From positions 1-64,000 of IMG/VR virus record IMGVR_UViG_3300032931_000905: 64,000 bases of DNA; one strand, given 5' to 3'. The position numbers were made by a program, and so were the translations under genes. This document shows positions 60,671 to 64,000 of this stretch, piece by piece. The first letter of the stretch is position 1. Every line of letters begins with the position of its first letter. A model generated the notes under the pieces. The model worked only from the letters and a program-made list of their open reading frames with translations. It ran no database searches and had not been told where the DNA came from. Source of the DNA: a virus.

Positions 60671-60744
60671 TGGTCGACCCTACAGGTTACGCTCCTGTCT
60701 CACCGCAATGTCAATGCGGTATTCTGCTAATGAACTAAGGGTCG
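60671..60744 (-). tRNA. tRNA-Val(GAC)
   Basis: Cloverleaf; CCGCA-TTGACAT-TGCGG; encoded CCA; atypical T-loop AGCGTAA. Confidence 0.85.
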
Positions 60745-60747
60745 TTG

Positions 60748-60823
60748 TGGTCTGCCTGGAGGGATTTGAGCCCCCATCCTCCCGGTTCGAAGCCGAGTAG
60801 TCTTCCAGTTGACGTACAGGCAG
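60748..60823 (-). tRNA. tRNA-Arg(TCG)
   Basis: CTCGG-CTTCGAA-CCGGG; CCA. Confidence 0.88.
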
Positions 60824-60882
60824 TCTAGATCAAAAAATCTTTCCATGCGTAGATTACACGGTCTATTCTACGCAAACCTTAT

Positions 60883-60957
60883 TGGTGCCACGGGTGGGAT
60901 TCTAACCCACGTTGTCCCGCTTAGGAGGCAGGTGCCTGTACACTAGGCTACCGCGGC
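60883..60957 (-). tRNA. tRNA-Arg(CCT)
   Basis: CCTGC-CTCCTAA-GCGGG; CCA; T-loop TTAGAAT. Confidence 0.87.
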
Positions 60958-60961
60958 GTTA

Positions 60962-61037
60962 TGGACTCGCTGGTGGGATTCTCACCCACAACCTTCCAGG
61001 TAGAAACTGGAAATGCAAATAATTACACCTCAGCGAG
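60962..61037 (-). tRNA. tRNA-Arg(TCT)
   Basis: TCCAG-TTTCTAC-CTGGA; CCA; T-loop TGAGAAT. Confidence 0.83.
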
Positions 61038-61042
61038 ATATT

Positions 61043-61117
61043 TGGTGCTCCCAGAGAGTATCGATCTCTCTTTTCCTGGTTGAGAACCAGGCGAACTAGC
61101 CAGTATTCGATGGGAGC
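61043..61117 (-). tRNA. tRNA-Glu(CTC)
   Basis: CCTGG-TTCTCAA-CCAGG; CCA. Confidence 0.87.
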
Positions 61118-61527
61118 GTATTATGCGTCGGCCAATAATATGGCAGGTCCGTTGGCTCGACCCAATGAAACTGCCCGTAATACTTTGGGTCTTTTCTCAA
61201 TAAGTTACTTCGGTGTGCGCTATGAAATTGCTCAGAGTTGTGCCAAGGTGGATAGACAACAGGGCACTCAACGACATATAAGGGCATGTTATTGTTATAC
61301 CCTCGACTTATCCATTCCTCGATGCAGGTATTCACATACAATTTCAGCGCATGTTCATACCCCTTCCACATCAACACCGCAGGATGATTTTTCCATCCTT
61401 GCTTTGCAGACGGATTCAACAACACATTCAAAATCTGCATTCCTTCGACTCGTTGTTTTCCTAACCGACGATAATCTAAGGCTTGCACAGATTTCTTAAA
61501 AGAGGGGTAGGGCAAAAATGTTTGCAT
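61096..61527 (-). CDS. Pyrimidine-dimer DNA glycosylase-like protein (DenV/MSMEG_6728 family)
   Basis: MQTFLPY..F..S...LD.RRLGKQRVE..QIL, HPAV.MW.GY, EW..RG, H.SNLLRKDP..Y. Confidence 0.85.
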   Translation of the reverse strand: MQTFLPYPSFKKSVQALDYRRLGKQRVEGMQILNVLLNPSAKQGWKNHPAVLMWKGYEHALKLYVNTCIEEWISRGYNNNMPLYVVECPVVYPPWHNSEQFHSAHRSNLLRKDPKYYGQFHWVEPTDLPYYWPTHNTLPSNTG

Positions 61528-61532
61528 GAGAG

Positions 61533-61561
61533 ATTATAGCACAGTATTCATGCCCTGTCAA
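61533..61561 (-). promoter_or_regulatory. Consensus sigma70 promoter, probably leaderless mRNA
   Basis: TTGACA-N17-TATAAT with TG; ATG 5 nt downstream of the -10 box. Confidence 0.75.
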
Positions 61562-61575
61562 GTGCTATTATAAAT

Positions 61576-61880
61576 TGGTGGAGATGCCGGGAATTGAACC
61601 CGGGTCCAAAAGCAACGTCAAAGTCAGATTTTCATGCTAGTCAATCTTACAACGCCCGCCAAAGGGATTGACACCTTCTACGGTCTTCTTGAGCGCACAA
61701 CTTGCCTCCAAGAATGACGCTTCACCACCTACAGGAGCCTATCAGTGGGTCAACGGGCCGCGATTAAGCGGCCATTGCCAGTTCGTGTTCGACAATTCGG
61801 TTTTTCCAAGTATTAACGAGGTCCTGGTCCTCGGCATGTCCGTTCTTCTCTATACGCCTCTGTCGATACCTGTCATCCCC
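61576..61880 (-). ncRNA. ssrA: tmRNA
   Basis: 5' GGGGATGA..GGTATCGAC; 3' GGACCCGGGTTCAATTCCCGGCATCTCCACCA; G3-U alanine identity pair; tag ORF 61793-61764 VEHELAMAA*. Confidence 0.95.
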
Positions 61881-61888
61881 TTTCATTG

Positions 61889-62089
61889 TTACCATGAGTC
61901 ATAGTCTGTCAAATTACACATGATACCGGTAGCCATATTTTCGACTTCAATGACCGTACCGATACCTGTCGGAGAAACATGAAACTCAAATGCCATGGGG
62001 CGTCCACCTGAGAGTTTCTTCTGTTTGCTCTGTTTGCGAATAAAGACTTCCAGGTTCTTCACTTCTTTTGCATTCAATTGAAACTTCAT
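61889..62089 (-). CDS. Small hypothetical protein
   Basis: GGAG RBS; F...PTGIG....V......LTDYDSW. Confidence 0.6.
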   Translation of the reverse strand: MKFQLNAKEVKNLEVFIRKQSKQKKLSGGRPMAFEFHVSPTGIGTVIEVENMATGIMCNLTDYDSW

Positions 62090-62103
62090 ACTATACTCCA
62101 AAA

Positions 62104-62188
62104 TGGCGGAGAGGTGAGTAGTCGAAACCCAACCTTTCGGTCCCACCCGCTTCAAACGGGGTTCAGTGCCCTGACTGATTACCTCTCC
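62104..62188 (-). tRNA. tRNA-Ser(TGA)
   Basis: GGA start, loop TTTGAAG, long variable arm, GCCA end. Confidence 0.85.
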
Positions 62189-62275
62189 TCAATATCCTAG
62201 AAGCCAGGTGGCCACGACACCAATAGTCGCCGTAATCACAAAGGCTAAACCTAATGCTTTCCAATTGATCTGCAT
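62189..62275 (-). CDS. 28-aa single-TM peptide between tRNAs
   Basis: GGAGG RBS; MQINWKALGLAFVITATIGVVATWLLGY. Confidence 0.55.
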   Translation of the reverse strand: MQINWKALGLAFVITATIGVVATWLLGY

Positions 62276-62289
62276 AGTATACCTCCAAA

Positions 62290-62377
62290 TGGCGGAAGAG
62301 ACAGGATTTGAACCTGCGTGGCTTTGACACCGCATCCCTTTCCAAGGGAGCCCGATTGGCCTCTCTGGCACTCTTCC
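62290..62377 (-). tRNA. tRNA-Ser(GGA)
   Basis: Loop TTGGAAA, long variable arm, GCCA. Confidence 0.92.
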
Positions 62378-62387
62378 AAAAAACTTA

Positions 62388-62477
62388 TGGCGGAAGTGTG
62401 AGGACATGCTCCCCAGGGTATCTAAGGCCCCAATCCGCTTTCGAGACGGTTCCGACACCTTGATCGGTTACACTTCC
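62388..62477 (-). tRNA. tRNA-Ser(CGA)
   Basis: Loop CTCGAAA, long variable arm, GCCA; T-loop AGCATGT. Confidence 0.83.
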
Positions 62478-62863: not shown

Positions 62864-62864
62864 A

Positions 62865-62941
62865 TGGTGTCCCTGGGTGGACTTGAACCACCGATTTCAG
62901 ACTTCGCAGGTCTGCGTCTTTTCCATCTGGACCACAGGGAC
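62865..62941 (-). tRNA. tRNA-Arg(GCG)
   Basis: CAGAC-CTGCGAA-GTCTG; canonical D/T loops; CCA. Confidence 0.9.
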
Positions 62942-62955
62942 ATATTTCTGGCACA

Positions 62956-63030
62956 TGGTGAACGGTGCTGGTACTGCCCCAGCTTAGTCTTCCTTGTAAG
63001 GGAAGTGCATATCTTTCCTGCCCACCGTCC
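62956..63030 (-). tRNA. tRNA-Val(TAC)
   Basis: CTTCC-CTTACAA-GGAAG; CCA; T-loop GGCAGTA. Confidence 0.8.
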
Positions 63031-63038
63031 GTAACGTA

Positions 63039-63113
63039 TGGAGCCCTCAACCGGACTTGCGCCGGTCTATCCACCTTACCAAGGTGGCGAATCGCTATCT
63101 ATTCTTTGAGGGC
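63039..63113 (-). tRNA. tRNA-Thr(GGT)
   Basis: CCACC-TTGGTAA-GGTGG; CCA; T-loop CGCAAGT. Confidence 0.85.
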
Positions 63114-63135
63114 ATATTTATTCGTATGGGAGCAT

Positions 63136-63212
63136 TGGTGCCGAAGGAGGGATTCGAACCCTCACTGTGCTGCTTTTGAGACAGCCGCCTCCTGCCGTTG
63201 GGCTACTTCGGC
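63136..63212 (-). tRNA. tRNA-Leu(CAA), short variable loop
   Basis: GCTGT-CTCAAAA-GCAGC; canonical T-loop; CCA. Confidence 0.9.
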
Positions 63213-63217
63213 ATAAT

Positions 63218-63294
63218 TGGTGCTGGCGAGAGGAATCGAACCTCCACTTGTCCAGATTTTAAGTTTGGTGACTCTGCCTTTGGTCTACGCCAGC
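63218..63294 (-). tRNA. tRNA-Leu(TAA), short variable loop
   Basis: Loop CTTAAAA; canonical T-loop; one anticodon-stem mismatch; CCA. Confidence 0.87.
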
Positions 63295-63299
63295 ATACA

Positions 63300-63374
63300 T
63301 GGAGCCCCGTACCGGATGTGCGCCGGTTTCTGCGGTGTACGAAACCGCTGAATCACTATCAATTCTTACAGGGC
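63300..63374 (-). tRNA. tRNA-Thr(CGT)
   Basis: GCGGT-TTCGTAC-ACCGC; CCA; T-loop CGCACAT. Confidence 0.83.
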
Positions 63375-63376
63375 AT

Positions 63377-63405
63377 AGTATAACACGACCCCCGATTATT
63401 GTCAA
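63377..63405 (-). promoter_or_regulatory. Sigma70-type promoter for the RNA array
   Basis: TTGACA-N17-TATACT with TG, immediately upstream of tRNA-Thr(CGT); spacing to the tRNA 5' end is unusually short. Confidence 0.6.
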
Positions 63406-63508
63406 GTACAAAAGTGTTCCTGCTCCTTCTAGCCTTCTAGGGTCCCCTCATACCAGGATTGGGGTAGCGGATCGTTGCCGCCTCGGGTCGTGATAAGTTA
63501 TACCAGAA

Positions 63509-63856
63509 TTAGACTCGGGCGTCCAGCGCGGCGGTCACTTCCTGCACCCCTGCCAATGTGGCGTCCAAGGCGGCTGGTGCCACTAATCCTGCTTGACCCG
63601 CGGTCAAGGCATCAACTTGGGTCTGCAAGGTCTGCAAGGCGGCCAACTTCACGGCGTCACGGGCGGCTTCTGCCACCTGTGCGGCCTTCAAATCTGCAAC
63701 GGCACTTTCTAATTCTGCAACTGTAGCCATGTGTGTGTCTCCTCGTTGAATAAGTTGTTTCACTAACCGATATAACTCCTCGATGGAATGCTCGTCACCA
63801 CCCATACAAAAATCGTGTACCGACTTCAACCCCTCAAACGTTTCATCATGTTGCAT
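63509..63856 (-). CDS. Ala-rich coiled-coil hypothetical protein (second in-frame start at 63730)
   Basis: AGGAGG RBS at 63856 and GAGGAG RBS at 63730. Confidence 0.6.
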   Translation of the reverse strand: MQHDETFEGLKSVHDFCMGGDEHSIEELYRLVKQLIQRGDTHMATVAELESAVADLKAAQVAEAARDAVKLAALQTLQTQVDALTAGQAGLVAPAALDATLAGVQEVTAALDARV

Positions 63857-63877
63857 AACGCACCCTCCTTCTAGGAG

Positions 63878-63885
63878 TATTTATA
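63878..63885 (-). promoter_or_regulatory. T4-type late promoter TATAAATA
   Basis: Exact motif upstream of the 63856 start. Confidence 0.6.
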
Positions 63886-63890
63886 CGCAT

Positions 63891-63965
63891 TGGTCAGGCT
63901 GGTTGGACTCGCACCAACATGGTCTCCGTTCCGAACGGAGTAGTCAACTTTTGACCCACAGCCTG
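63891..63965 (-). tRNA. tRNA-Pro(CGG)
   Basis: CTCCG-TTCGGAA-CGGAG; C1-G72, A73, CCA; T-loop TGCGAGT. Confidence 0.87.
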
Positions 63966-63970
63966 AATCA

Positions 63971-64000
63971 TGGAGCGGGATGCGGGTTCTGCCCCCGCGA
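63971..64000 (-). tRNA. 3' end of a tRNA (probably Gly; anticodon outside window)
   Basis: T-arm GCGGG-GGCAGAA-CCCGC then ATCCCGCTCCA. Confidence 0.65.

What the first reader, a model, noticed from the sequence alone, without database searches (positions are those of the whole stretch)
60671..64000. tRNAs with systematically rewired, compensated D/T-loop elbows
Seen: about 10 of the 17 tRNAs lack the TTC of the T-loop, and the partners change together. G55 co-occurs with AG in place of GG in the D-loop (Val-GAC, Val-TAC, Thr-GGT, Thr-CGT, Pro-CGG; Ser-CGA has AGG). A56 co-occurs with U19 in Arg-CCT (D-loop GT, T-loop TTA). Arg-TCT has both swaps (D-loop AT, T-loop TGA). The 54-58 pair is reversed to A-U in Val-GAC and Ser-CGA, and U8-A14 is reversed to A8-U14 in Thr-CGT. 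Stems and CCA ends are intact. Known: G18-Psi55, G19-C56, T54-A58 and U8-A14 are near-universal tertiary contacts. Inference: these are functional tRNAs, not pseudogenes, with a recoded elbow surface that may evade host tRNA-targeting defences or phage-driven degradation of host tRNA. Standard scanners may score them poorly. Numbering was assigned by eye.
Basis: partly seen in the sequence, partly recalled or inferred. Interest (0 to 1): 0.75.

Follow-up and report, generated by a model that had tools for sequence, protein, structure and literature searches.

The report
Phage tRNAs with a rewired elbow
A phage that probably infects nitrite-oxidising Nitrospira carries 39 tRNA genes, and most of them build the corner of the L-shaped molecule from an alternative, mutually matching set of bases, so they look like working tRNAs with a second design of a part usually treated as invariant.

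Summary
Observation confirmed and extended. The window holds 16 complete tRNA genes, one cut by its end, and a tmRNA. They open a minus-strand array of 39 tRNA genes (60671-70195) on an 89-kb T4-like phage contig. 11 of the 17 window tRNAs, and 24 of 39 overall, lack TTC in the T-loop.

The partner changes are real. Across 135 distinct tRNAs of this phage lineage, 128 carry the D-loop dinucleotide predicted from the T-loop (18=G with U55, 18=A with G55; 19 complementary to 56). Shuffles gave a mean of 66 and a maximum of 81. The coupling holds with no alignment freedom (7-nt D-loops) and under a covariance-model alignment. Pair 19-56 takes all four Watson-Crick forms, and 54/58 and 8/14 also co-vary.

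Stems are 91-99% paired. All 8 tRNA-Ala keep G3:U70, and discriminators match the putative host in 122 of 132. These are most likely working tRNAs, not pseudogenes.

The escape-from-defence idea is untested. It is plausible, because a published CRISPR-associated Schlafen nuclease needs U54 and U55. Against it, 15 of 39 tRNAs stay canonical.

This scan has noted the same A18/G55 design in at least 28 other genomes. I found it in no paper searched.

The parts
60671..60744 (-). tRNA-Val(GAC). D-loop ATTAGCA, T-loop AGCGTAA: A18 G19 with G55 C56; A54/U58.
60748..60823 (-). tRNA-Arg(TCG). D-loop AACTGGAA, T-loop CTCAAAT: G18 G19 with U55 C56; C54.
60883..60957 (-). tRNA-Arg(CCT). D-loop AGTGTAC, T-loop TTAGAAT: G18 U19 with U55 A56 (19-56 swapped to U-A).
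60962..61037 (-). tRNA-Arg(TCT). D-loop AATTATTT, T-loop TGAGAAT: A18 U19 with G55 A56 (both swaps); A8.
61043..61117 (-). tRNA-Glu(CTC). D-loop ACTGGCTA, T-loop ATCGATA: G18 G19 with U55 C56; A54/A58.
61576..61880 (-). tmRNA inside the array. Its tRNA-like part has a canonical TTCAATT T-loop.
   Evidence: 120.9 bits
62104..62188 (-). tRNA-Ser(TGA), long variable arm. T-loop TTCGACT, GG in the D-loop (canonical elbow).
   Evidence: anticodon as called by ARAGORN
62290..62377 (-). tRNA-Ser(GGA). D-loop AGAGGCCAA, T-loop TTCAAAT (canonical elbow).
62388..62477 (-). tRNA-Ser(CGA). D-loop ATCAAGGTG, T-loop AGCATGT: A18 G19 with G55 C56; A54/U58. Missed by ARAGORN default and by Rfam.
   Evidence: (relaxed threshold)
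62481..62567 (-). tRNA-Ser(GCT). T-loop TTCGAGT, GG in the D-loop (canonical elbow). Only a sub-threshold Rfam tRNA-Sec hit (30.3 bits).
62865..62941 (-). tRNA-Arg(GCG). D-loop AGATGGAAA, T-loop TTCAAGT (canonical here; relatives carry C19-G56 or A19-U56).
62956..63030 (-). tRNA-Val(TAC). D-loop GAAAGAT, T-loop GGCAGTA: A18 G19 with G55 C56; G54/G58; G8/G14. Missed by ARAGORN default and by Rfam.
63039..63113 (-). tRNA-Thr(GGT). D-loop AGATAGCG, T-loop CGCAAGT: A18 G19 with G55 C56; C54/A58; A8/A14. Missed by ARAGORN default and by Rfam.
63136..63212 (-). tRNA-Leu(CAA). T-loop TTCGAAT, GG in the D-loop. Variable loop of only 5 nt.
63218..63294 (-). tRNA-Leu(TAA). T-loop TTCGATT, GG in the D-loop. 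Variable loop of only 6 nt.
63300..63374 (-). tRNA-Thr(CGT). D-loop TGATAGTG, T-loop CGCACAT: A18 G19 with G55 C56; C54/C58; A8/U14. A sigma-70-like site (11 of 12) lies just upstream at 63405-63377.
   Evidence: (relaxed threshold)
63891..63965 (-). tRNA-Pro(CGG). D-loop AAAAGTT, T-loop TGCGAGT: A18 G19 with G55 C56. Found by ARAGORN but not by Rfam even at E<=10.
63971..64000 (-). 3' part of tRNA-Gly(TCC), whole gene 63971-64044 of the contig. T-loop GGCAGAA; D-loop AGCAGCA lies beyond the window end.

Best explanation
These are working phage tRNAs. The array holds 39 genes covering all 20 amino acids, plus a tmRNA. They are presumably processed, charged and used by the host machinery.

The D-loop/T-loop elbow is built from alternative but structurally equivalent nucleotides:
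- (i) Position 55 is G instead of U. The T-loop then uses the GNR turn ("G-clamp") that T-loop motifs of rRNA, RNase P and riboswitches commonly use, instead of the tRNA-typical UNR turn.
- (ii) The base that intercalates between 57 and 58 and contacts 55 changes with it, from G18 to A18.
- (iii) The stacking platform 19-56 remains a Watson-Crick pair but takes any of the four forms.
- (iv) The closing pair 54-58, and the 8-14 pair of the same geometric family, take other members of that family (G-G, A-A, C-A, C-C, A-U).

Shown: the sequence covariation, its independence of alignment, its recurrence in relatives, and intact stems and identity elements.

Inferred: the 3D equivalence, and processing, charging and use in translation.

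Direct consequence, by inference: 24 of 39 tRNAs have no U54-U55 site. They cannot receive m5U54 or pseudouridine 55, and they lack the site that a T-loop-cutting nuclease needs.

Why the lineage is like this is open. My odds are about 40% tolerated compensatory drift in a mobile, fast-turning-over tRNA pool, about 30-35% selection to escape factors that read U54-U55-C56, and the rest for other causes.
For: Covariation.
- 128 of 135 distinct tRNAs obey the rule; shuffles reached at most 81.
- The fixed-register subset has 53 of 55 for 18/55 and 53 of 55 for 19/56, with mutual information peaking at exactly those cells.
- The covariance-model alignment has 134 of 142 for 18/55, and 19-56 as GC 109, UA 6, AU 5, CG 2, GU 1.
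- G54 goes with G58 in 26 of 26. T58 occurs only with A54 (7 of 7). A8 x T14 gives Fisher p 4e-6.

Independence of relatedness.
- On a tree built without the D- and T-loop columns, state 55 changes at least 22 times and state 18 at least 21 times.
- Of 33 disjoint nearest pairs that differ at 55 (at least 60% identity outside the loops), 29 also differ at 18 in the predicted way. By my eye, all 13 such pairs differing at 56 show the matching change at 19.

Function.
- Acceptor, D, anticodon and T stems are 98.6, 91.5, 98.7 and 99.6% paired. The covariation score is 0.948 against 0.208 in shuffles.
- Non-TTC tRNAs are as well paired as TTC ones (98.7% against 95.6%).
- G3:U70 is present in 8 of 8 tRNA-Ala, all of which have non-canonical T-loops.
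- Discriminators match the N. moscoviensis set in 122 of 132.
- G53-C61 is kept in 138 of 142. Position 57 is a purine in 135 of 135.

Structure, from papers (passages read).
- T-loops are a UA_handle plus a UNR or GNR turn, and tRNA has the U-clamp where others have a G-clamp. The trans Watson-Crick/Hoogsteen closer is U:A in 92%, but C:A, A:A, G:A, C:C and G:G occur (PMC2615604).
- A riboswitch T-loop homologous to the D/T contact has a near-invariant G at position 2, a Watson-Crick pair at position 3 and a tolerant closing pair (PMC6158498).

The same rule holds for the rare variants in unrelated phages.
Against: - There are no expression, processing or charging data. No RNA run holder was listed.
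- 7 of 135 tRNAs and 8 of 142 rows break the rule. Lys-TTT has AACGCA with TGCAAGT. One unrelated phage tRNA has GG with GGCAGCA.
- Two genes of this contig look damaged. Phe-GAA has only 4 of 7 acceptor pairs and an uncompensated A18/U55. His-GTG lacks a full CCA and has T at -1.
- The strict tree test had only 5 pairs on supported branches. All went the predicted way, but p is 0.0625.
- The A18-G55 geometry was not modelled.
- In yeast SUP4oc, 45 of 47 tertiary-pair variants were dead (PMC4117946), so function of such variants cannot be assumed.
Confidence: 0.8

Rival explanations
1. Anti-defence adaptation. This concerns the cause and is compatible with the best explanation. On this reading the elbow was rewired under selection to escape host factors that read U54-U55-C56, above all T-loop-cutting nucleases of the Schlafen type. 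The phage's own decoding set would then survive when host tRNAs are cut.
For: - CbCash cleaves tRNAs mainly in the T-loop, 5' of U55, at a UUC motif. Single U54 or U55 mutants abolish cleavage. The authors call the fate of phage tRNAs an open question (PMC13462974, passages read).
- 24 of 39 tRNAs here lack U54 or U55.
- The host candidate has 45 of 45 canonical tRNAs. Unrelated phage loci have 84 of 93 canonical, so this lineage is strongly enriched.
- Schlafen/AlbA_2-domain proteins occur in 19 of 41 sampled genomes of the host genus, one of them next to a type I restriction specificity gene.
- The phage carries an RtcB RNA ligase, a sign of conflict over cut tRNAs.
Against: - 15 of 39 tRNAs keep UUC, including all Ser, Leu and Tyr. 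A broad T-loop nuclease would still stop translation.
- Related tRNAs flip between canonical and rewired in both directions among close relatives.
- The three Nitrospira proteins examined are AlbA_2 + HATPase_c_4 (two; one also with HTH) or AlbA_2 alone (one), not the Csx15 fusion. Nothing shows that they cut tRNA.
- 19-56, 8-14 and 54-58 also vary, which escape at U55 alone does not require.
Confidence: 0.3
2. Decaying or non-functional tRNA genes (pseudogenes) that merely retain a cloverleaf.
For: - Low or absent scores in standard scanners.
- Two genes on this contig do look damaged: Phe-GAA and His-GTG.
Against: - Stems are 98-99% paired with compensatory changes.
- Tertiary partners change together.
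- Identity elements are kept.
- The same design is conserved in two complete related phage genomes.
Confidence: 0.04
3. tRNA-shaped RNAs with a role outside decoding, for example RNase P/Z punctuation of a polycistronic transcript, or decoys that soak up tRNA-directed nucleases.
For: - Small ORFs and other structured RNAs are interspersed in the array.
- Each unit ends in NCCA.
Against: - The anticodons form a complete, mostly non-redundant decoding set for 20 amino acids.
- Identity elements match the anticodon, including G3:U70 in Ala and the discriminators. Punctuation or decoys would not need this.
Confidence: 0.06
4. DNA-level driver. Diversifying the most conserved stretch of tRNA genes (the GGTTCGAATCC box) protects a 39-gene tandem array from recombination between repeats, or from homing endonucleases that target tRNA genes. 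The RNA-level compensation would be secondary.
For: - HNH/NUMOD3 and GIY-YIG-like ORFs sit in and beside the array.
- T4 SegB is a homing endonuclease in a tRNA cluster (PMC2330249, listing and abstract seen). The L-array paper states that SegB prefers to cleave within tRNA genes (PMC8421152, passage read).
Against: - The shared box is only about 11 nt.
- D-loop partners 35-40 nt away change in step, which is an RNA-level constraint.
- No target site was identified.
Confidence: 0.05

Closest known systems
Canonical bacterial/phage elongator tRNA (Rfam RF00005), elbow G18-Psi55, G19-C56, T54-A58, U8-A14
   Same: Cloverleaf with 7/4/5/5 stems, 7-nt anticodon loop, encoded NCCA, identity elements, and a D-loop/T-loop contact kept by selection.
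   Different: 24 of 39 genes lack TTC. 18/55 is A/G. 19-56 takes all four Watson-Crick forms. 54-58 and 8-14 use other pairs. Many fall below scanner thresholds.
Generic T-loop motif of rRNA, RNase P and riboswitches (UA_handle plus UNR or GNR turn; PMC2615604, PMC6158498, passages read)
   Same: Position 2 is U or G. Position 4 is a purine. Position 3 is Watson-Crick paired to a distant base. A base intercalates between positions 4 and 5. The closing pair is U:A or C:A, A:A, C:C, G:G.
   Different: Here the G-clamp versions sit inside bona fide tRNAs. Every review passage I read describes U55, or T-Psi-C, as conserved in tRNA.
[quoted passage not shown]
   Same: Dozens of tRNA genes on one strand, on a mobile genome, with homing-endonuclease genes nearby and a link to RtcB and translational stress.
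   Different: The main text of PMC8421152 has no occurrence of T-loop or G18. Elbow rewiring is not described there.
A54/A58 in eukaryotic initiator tRNA and tRNA-Ala (PMC7566577, passages read)
   Same: A natural alternative trans Watson-Crick/Hoogsteen closer of the T-loop.
   Different: That case is one pair in particular tRNA species. G18, G19, U55 and C56 stay canonical there.
Mitochondrial and pyrrolysine tRNAs that lack G18 G19 / T-Psi-C (PMC7609411, passages read)
   Same: They lack the consensus elbow nucleotides.
   Different: Those have lost or replaced the D/T contact and often have shortened loops or arms. Here the loops are of normal size and the partners co-vary, so the contact is kept.

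Membership tests
Elongator tRNA (RF00005) | Cloverleaf with acceptor, D, anticodon and T stems kept by compensatory change | tested here: met
   98.6, 91.5, 98.7 and 99.6% of cells paired in 142 distinct sequences. Covariation score 0.948 against 0.208 in shuffles and 0.11-0.18 for slid partners.
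Elongator tRNA (RF00005) | 7-nt anticodon loop with U33; encoded or added 3' CCA | tested here: met
   the T before the anticodon is at least 90% conserved. NCCA is encoded in 37 of 39 genes (not in His-GTG or the second CAT gene).
Elongator tRNA (RF00005) | Consensus elbow nucleotides G18 G19 and T54 Psi55 C56 | tested here: not met
   24 of 39 genes lack TTC and 21 of 39 lack U55-C56. The contact itself appears kept through covariation.
Elongator tRNA (RF00005) | Score at or above Rfam's gathering threshold | tested here: inconclusive
   9 of 16 complete window tRNAs pass. Rfam matches 25 and 27 tRNAs in the two complete relatives, against about 39 and 36 hits of the lineage model (my count).
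Elongator tRNA (RF00005) | Identity elements fit the anticodon | tested here: met
   G3:U70 in 8 of 8 tRNA-Ala. The discriminator matches the N. moscoviensis set for the same amino acid in 122 of 132. Two of the 10 misses are my mis-parse of an Arg-TCG as Ser-CGA.
Elongator tRNA (RF00005) | Transcribed, processed, aminoacylated | not testable with these tools
   No RNA run holder was listed. The only hint is a sigma-70-like site (11 of 12) upstream of Thr-CGT.
Generic T-loop motif | Position 2 is U or G; position 4 is a purine | tested here: met
   all 135 T-loops have T or G at 55 and a purine at 57. One type-II gene outside that set has C55.
Generic T-loop motif | [quoted passage not shown] | tested here: inconclusive
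   T-A 85, G-G 26, A-A 9, A-T 7, C-A 6, C-C 2. All but A-T are on the list in PMC2615604, and A-U is among the closers listed in PMC6158498. Geometry cannot be tested from sequence.
Generic T-loop motif | Position 3 is Watson-Crick paired to a distant base; a base intercalates between positions 4 and 5 | tested here: inconclusive
   19-56 co-varies as a Watson-Crick pair. Intercalation of 18 is inferred from tRNA structures, not tested.
tRNA pseudogene | Broken stems, lost identity elements, uncompensated changes | tested here: not met
   The exception is Phe-GAA of this contig, with 4 of 7 acceptor pairs and A18/U55.
Phage or mobile tRNA array (L-array-like) | Twenty or more tRNA genes on one strand of a mobile genome, with homing endonucleases nearby | tested here: met
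   39 genes at 60671-70195 on a T4-like phage contig. An HNH/NUMOD3 ORF lies at 59100-59708, and further HNH and GIY-YIG-like ORFs lie in the array (by motif reading only).

The most novel reading that the evidence does not exclude
The rewired elbow is an orthogonal tRNA design selected in phage and mobile tRNA arrays. It removes the U54-U55-C56 / G18-G19 signature that defence nucleases such as Schlafen-type T-loop cutters, and perhaps phage takeover factors, use to recognise cellular tRNA. A phage carrying a full set could then keep translating while canonical tRNAs are destroyed.
Probability: 0.3. Interest if true: 0.85.

Novelty: new variant of a known kind. Interest (0 to 1): 0.65.

Why it matters
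G18, G19, U55 and C56 are treated as near-universal. They anchor tRNA gene finders, modification enzymes (m5U54, Psi55), and models of how RNase P, the ribosome and T-boxes read the elbow.

A natural, large data set in which these positions change in a strictly coupled way does four things:
- It gives direct evolutionary proof of the 18/55 and 19/56 contacts.
- It shows a second workable solution, A18/G55 with a GNR turn.
- It explains why scanners miss about a third of the tRNAs in such phages, so phage decoding capacity is under-counted.
- It offers ready-made scaffolds for orthogonal tRNAs.

It also makes an open question of a 2026 paper testable: whether phage tRNAs escape T-loop-cutting immune nucleases. 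Natural sequence pairs that differ in just these bases are now at hand.

Tried and rejected
Searches and controls that led nowhere or changed the plan:

- Relatives by the Pyr_excise protein inside the array. The 80 loci were not relatives; 15 of 80 held any tRNA call and few were non-TTC. I kept them as a control.
- GenBank phages by DNA. Only single-tRNA matches of 74-86% identity, and no relative.
- MAFFT alignment of 118 tRNAs. The stems aligned, but the D-loop register was inconsistent. I used it only to seed the covariance model.
- The covariance-model alignment still slips by one column in NGGC loops: 13 of the 19 non-pairs at 19-56.
- Tree-based independent pairs. There were only 5 pairs on supported branches. 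All went the predicted way, but p is 0.0625. The tree of such short sequences is weak, and 22 pairs exist only if unsupported branches are counted.
- Expression. No RNA holder was listed by the look-up of sequencing runs. Read laying was not used, because DNA contigs cannot show expression.
- A phage-encoded CCA-adding enzyme (PF01743) or TruB (PF01509) was not found in 0 of 3 records, two of them complete.
- Papers. Ten searches found no description of A18/G55 or of 19-56 swaps in phage tRNAs. The library lacks most subscription journals and supplements were closed. The U54/U55 mutant data of PMC13462974 are in its supplementary figures, and I saw only the main-text statements.
- Considered and rejected: pseudogenes, and mitochondrial-type loss of the elbow (see membership tests).
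- The host assignment rests on one auxiliary gene: OFOR beta is 81-85% identical to Nitrospira or Nitrospiraceae in nearly all of the 80 best genome hits. Only one host genome was checked for tRNAs.

Full report
WHAT IS THERE. The window is the first 64 kb of a single 89,020-bp virus record. CheckV rates it 53% complete. PHROG matches to baseplate wedge, hub and tail proteins mark a T4-like myovirus, and it carries an RtcB RNA ligase at 53163-54335.

On the minus strand from 60671 to 70195 lies an array of 39 tRNA genes plus a tmRNA. The anticodons cover all 20 amino acids.

ARAGORN at default finds 25 of the 39, and 11 of the window's tRNAs. Rfam's tRNA model at its gathering score finds 9 in the window. 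It misses Pro-CGG, Thr-CGT, Thr-GGT, Val-TAC, Ser-CGA and Ser-TGA even at E<=10, and Ser-GCT gives only a sub-threshold tRNA-Sec match.

THE OBSERVATION IN THE WINDOW. Parsing each gene from its NCCA end (7-bp acceptor, 5-bp T stem, 7-nt T-loop) gives 11 of 17 T-loops without TTC.
- G55-C56 goes with AG in the D-loop in Val-GAC, Val-TAC, Thr-GGT, Thr-CGT, Pro-CGG and Ser-CGA.
- U55-A56 goes with GT in Arg-CCT.
- G55-A56 goes with AT in Arg-TCT.
- A54/U58 occurs in Val-GAC and Ser-CGA.
- A8/U14 occurs in Thr-CGT.

IS IT MORE THAN CHANCE, AND MORE THAN NUMBERING BY EYE? D-loops vary in length, so one can often find a wanted dinucleotide. I used three controls.

First, an alignment-free rule: 18 is G if 55 is U and A if 55 is G, and 19 is the complement of 56. 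I scored it on 135 distinct tRNAs of this phage and its relatives. 128 carry the predicted dinucleotide. Dealing T-loops out at random gave a mean of 66 and at most 81 in 5000 trials.

Second, tRNAs with a 4-bp D stem and an exactly 7-nt D-loop have no freedom of register (n=55). There 18x55 is A/G 38, G/U 15, G/G 2, and 19x56 is G-C 49, U-A 3, C-C 2, G-U 1. In the full 7x7 table of D-loop against T-loop positions, mutual information peaks at exactly these two cells in their rows (0.68 and 0.31 bits). 0 of 5000 permutations reached either value. The two misfits are Leu-CAA genes whose D stem is really 3 bp.

Third, I built a covariance model from the cloverleaf alone. It knows nothing of tertiary pairs. 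It found 167 matches in 226 kb, and every window match lies in the array. On its alignment (142 distinct rows) 18x55 is A/G 69, G/U 65, other 8. 19-56 is GC 109, UA 6, AU 5, CG 2, GU 1, other 19, of which 13 are one-column slips of NGGC loops. So the covariation does not disappear under a structure-based alignment.

Other pairs co-vary too. G54 goes with G58 in 26 of 26, and U58 occurs only with A54 (7 of 7). A8 with U14 appears 9 times against about 2 expected (Fisher p 4e-6), and G8 with G14 appears 7 times.

RELATIVES AND INDEPENDENCE. Proteins next to the array (OFOR beta subunit, RtcB) led to relatives in IMG/VR. Among them are two complete genomes of 176 and 179 kb with arrays of the same kind.

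tRNAs with the same anticodon differ in elbow state between these phages, and always in a coupled way:
- Glu-CTC has GG with ATC or TTC, or AG with GGC.
- Gly-GCC has GG/TTC, AG/CGC or AG/GGC.
- Arg-GCG has GG/TTC, GC/TTG or GA/TTT.
- Arg-CCT has GT/TTA, GA/TTT or GG/TTC.
- Arg-TCT has AT/TGA, GG/TTC or GA/TTT.

On a tree built without the D- and T-loop columns, state 55 changes at least 22 times and state 18 at least 21 times. The strict paired test found only 5 pairs on supported branches. All 5 agreed, with p 0.0625, which is the limit of its power.

A simpler check took disjoint nearest pairs that differ at 55. It gave 8 of 10 concordant at >=70% identity outside the loops and 29 of 33 at >=60%. 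By my eye, all 13 pairs that differ at 56 show the matching change at 19. Some related tRNAs are clearly different genes rather than point mutants, so the array also evolves by gene replacement.

ARE THEY WORKING tRNAs? The evidence is sequence-level only, but consistent:
- Stems are 91.5-99.6% paired, with 1307 doubly changed cells against 356 in shuffles.
- Non-TTC tRNAs are no worse paired than TTC ones.
- G53-C61 is kept in 138 of 142, and 57 is always a purine.
- All 8 distinct tRNA-Ala keep G3:U70, although all 8 have non-canonical T-loops.
- Discriminator bases match those of the candidate host for the same amino acid in 122 of 132.

Against this, Phe-GAA of this contig has a broken acceptor stem (4 of 7 pairs) and is the one clear A18/U55 case. 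His-GTG lacks a complete CCA. No RNA data could be had.

HOST AND CONTROLS. The OFOR beta gene beside the array is 81-85% identical at protein level to Nitrospira or Nitrospiraceae in nearly all of the 80 best genome hits. In Nitrospira moscoviensis, 45 of 45 distinct tRNAs parsed by the same scanner have TTC and GG, and 44 of 45 have U8-A14.

In 1.5 Mb of unrelated phage loci, 84 of 93 distinct tRNAs are canonical. Of the 9 that are not, 8 fit the same rule: TGC with AG, TTT with GA, and ATC with GG. The one exception has GG with GGCAGCA. The rule is therefore general, and this lineage is extreme in how often it uses it.

HOW IT LIKELY WORKS. Papers on the T-loop motif (passages read) say three things:
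- T-loops combine a U:A trans Watson-Crick/Hoogsteen handle with a UNR or a GNR turn.
- tRNA is the case with a U-clamp where others have a G-clamp.
- The handle can also be C:A, A:A, G:A, C:C or G:G (PMC2615604).

A riboswitch T-loop homologous to the D/T contact has a near-invariant G at position 2, a Watson-Crick pair at position 3 and a tolerant closer (PMC6158498). The phage T-loops (G55-N56-R57, with closers G-G, A-A, C-A, C-C, A-U) fit this general repertoire.

I infer that the fold is the same. A18 takes the place of G18 as the intercalating partner of G55, and any Watson-Crick pair at 19-56 gives the flat outer face that RNase P and the ribosome stack on (PMC4810234). This is inference, since no structure was modelled.

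WHY. Two readings remain.

Escape. A CRISPR-associated Schlafen nuclease cuts tRNAs mainly in the T-loop, 5' of U55. It fails on U54 or U55 mutants, and its authors leave the fate of phage tRNAs open (PMC13462974). 24 of 39 genes here lack that site. Schlafen-domain proteins occur in 19 of 41 sampled genomes of the host genus, though with AlbA_2/HATPase_c_4 architectures of unknown activity. The phage also has RtcB.

Tolerated drift. 15 of 39 genes, including all Ser, Leu and Tyr, stay canonical. States flip both ways among relatives. Pairs irrelevant to a U55 site (19-56, 8-14) vary as well.

I put drift at about 40% and escape at 30-35%.

NOVELTY. Reviews read in passages describe these nucleotides as conserved (PMC7609411, PMC4810234). 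In yeast, 45 of 47 tertiary-pair variants of one tRNA were dead (PMC4117946). The L-array paper does not mention the T-loop. Ten literature searches found no description.

Earlier notes of this scan report the same A18/G55 design in at least 28 other genomes, mostly phages, so it is recurrent. What this case adds is the full set of four Watson-Crick forms at 19-56, the G54/G58 class, and a Nitrospira-linked host.

LIMITS.
- There is no expression or charging evidence.
- Only one host genome was checked.
- The tRNA tree is weak.
- The 39-gene inventory includes two doubtful genes and one odd long-arm gene with a UAU-like anticodon.

Noticed in passing
window 62570-62864 (minus strand): A 295-nt gap between tRNA-Arg(GCG) and tRNA-Ser(GCT) has no credible ORF. 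It folds better than shuffles (-100.9 kcal/mol, z -3.56, 1 of 200 shuffles as good) and has no Rfam match at E<=10.
   Followed up: partly
window 63136-63294; L239:2550-2626 (contig 66550-66626): All three tRNA-Leu genes (CAA, TAA, TAG) have variable loops of only 5-6 nt, whereas the candidate host's tRNA-Leu have 11-16 nt. Relatives show the same. They keep A73 and Leu-like D-loops.
   Followed up: partly
L239:2293-2381 (contig 66293-66381, minus strand): A long-variable-arm tRNA-like gene whose anticodon loop can be read as UAU, with T-loop TCCGATT (C55). A relative has TTTGATT and a clear TTTATAA loop. Identity unclear.
   Followed up: no
L239:347-420 and L239:4488-4562 (contig 64347-64420, 68488-68562): Phe-GAA has only 4 of 7 acceptor pairs and an uncompensated A18/U55. 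His-GTG ends in C-CA-T instead of C-CCA and has T at -1, unlike its relatives, which end in C-CCA (their -1 base was not checked). These may be decaying copies.
   Followed up: partly
window 61576-61880: The tmRNA scores 120.9 bits. ARAGORN's 29-residue tag looks wrong. By eye, the frame ending at the TAA before the conserved hairpin reads ...E-H-E-L-A-M-A-A (sequence).
   Followed up: no
window 63405-63377 and 61561-61533 (minus strand): Two near-perfect sigma-70-like sites with extended -10 (11 of 12 and 12 of 12). The first lies directly upstream of tRNA-Thr(CGT), the second upstream of the Pyr_excise ORF. Five such sites were found in the region against 3.2 expected.
   Followed up: no
window 59712-60623 (minus strand): A phage copy of a TPP-binding oxoacid:ferredoxin oxidoreductase beta subunit, 81-85% identical to Nitrospira homologues. 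It is the basis of the host guess. 8 viral contigs carry it.
   Followed up: partly
window 53163-54335, 58661-59119, 59100-59708, 61096-61527: RtcB RNA ligase, a dual-specificity phosphatase-like protein, an HNH/NUMOD3 endonuclease and a pyrimidine-dimer glycosylase flank or interrupt the array. Further HNH- and GIY-YIG-like ORFs lie at contig 66700-67350, 68639-69181 and 69182-69766 (by motif reading only).
   Followed up: partly
D-loop position 16 x T-loop position 59 (lineage alignment): In the 7-nt D-loop subset, the third D-loop base and position 59 share 0.47 bits of mutual information. That is the third-highest cell of the table, after 18x55. It may reflect the known 16-59 contact.
   Followed up: no
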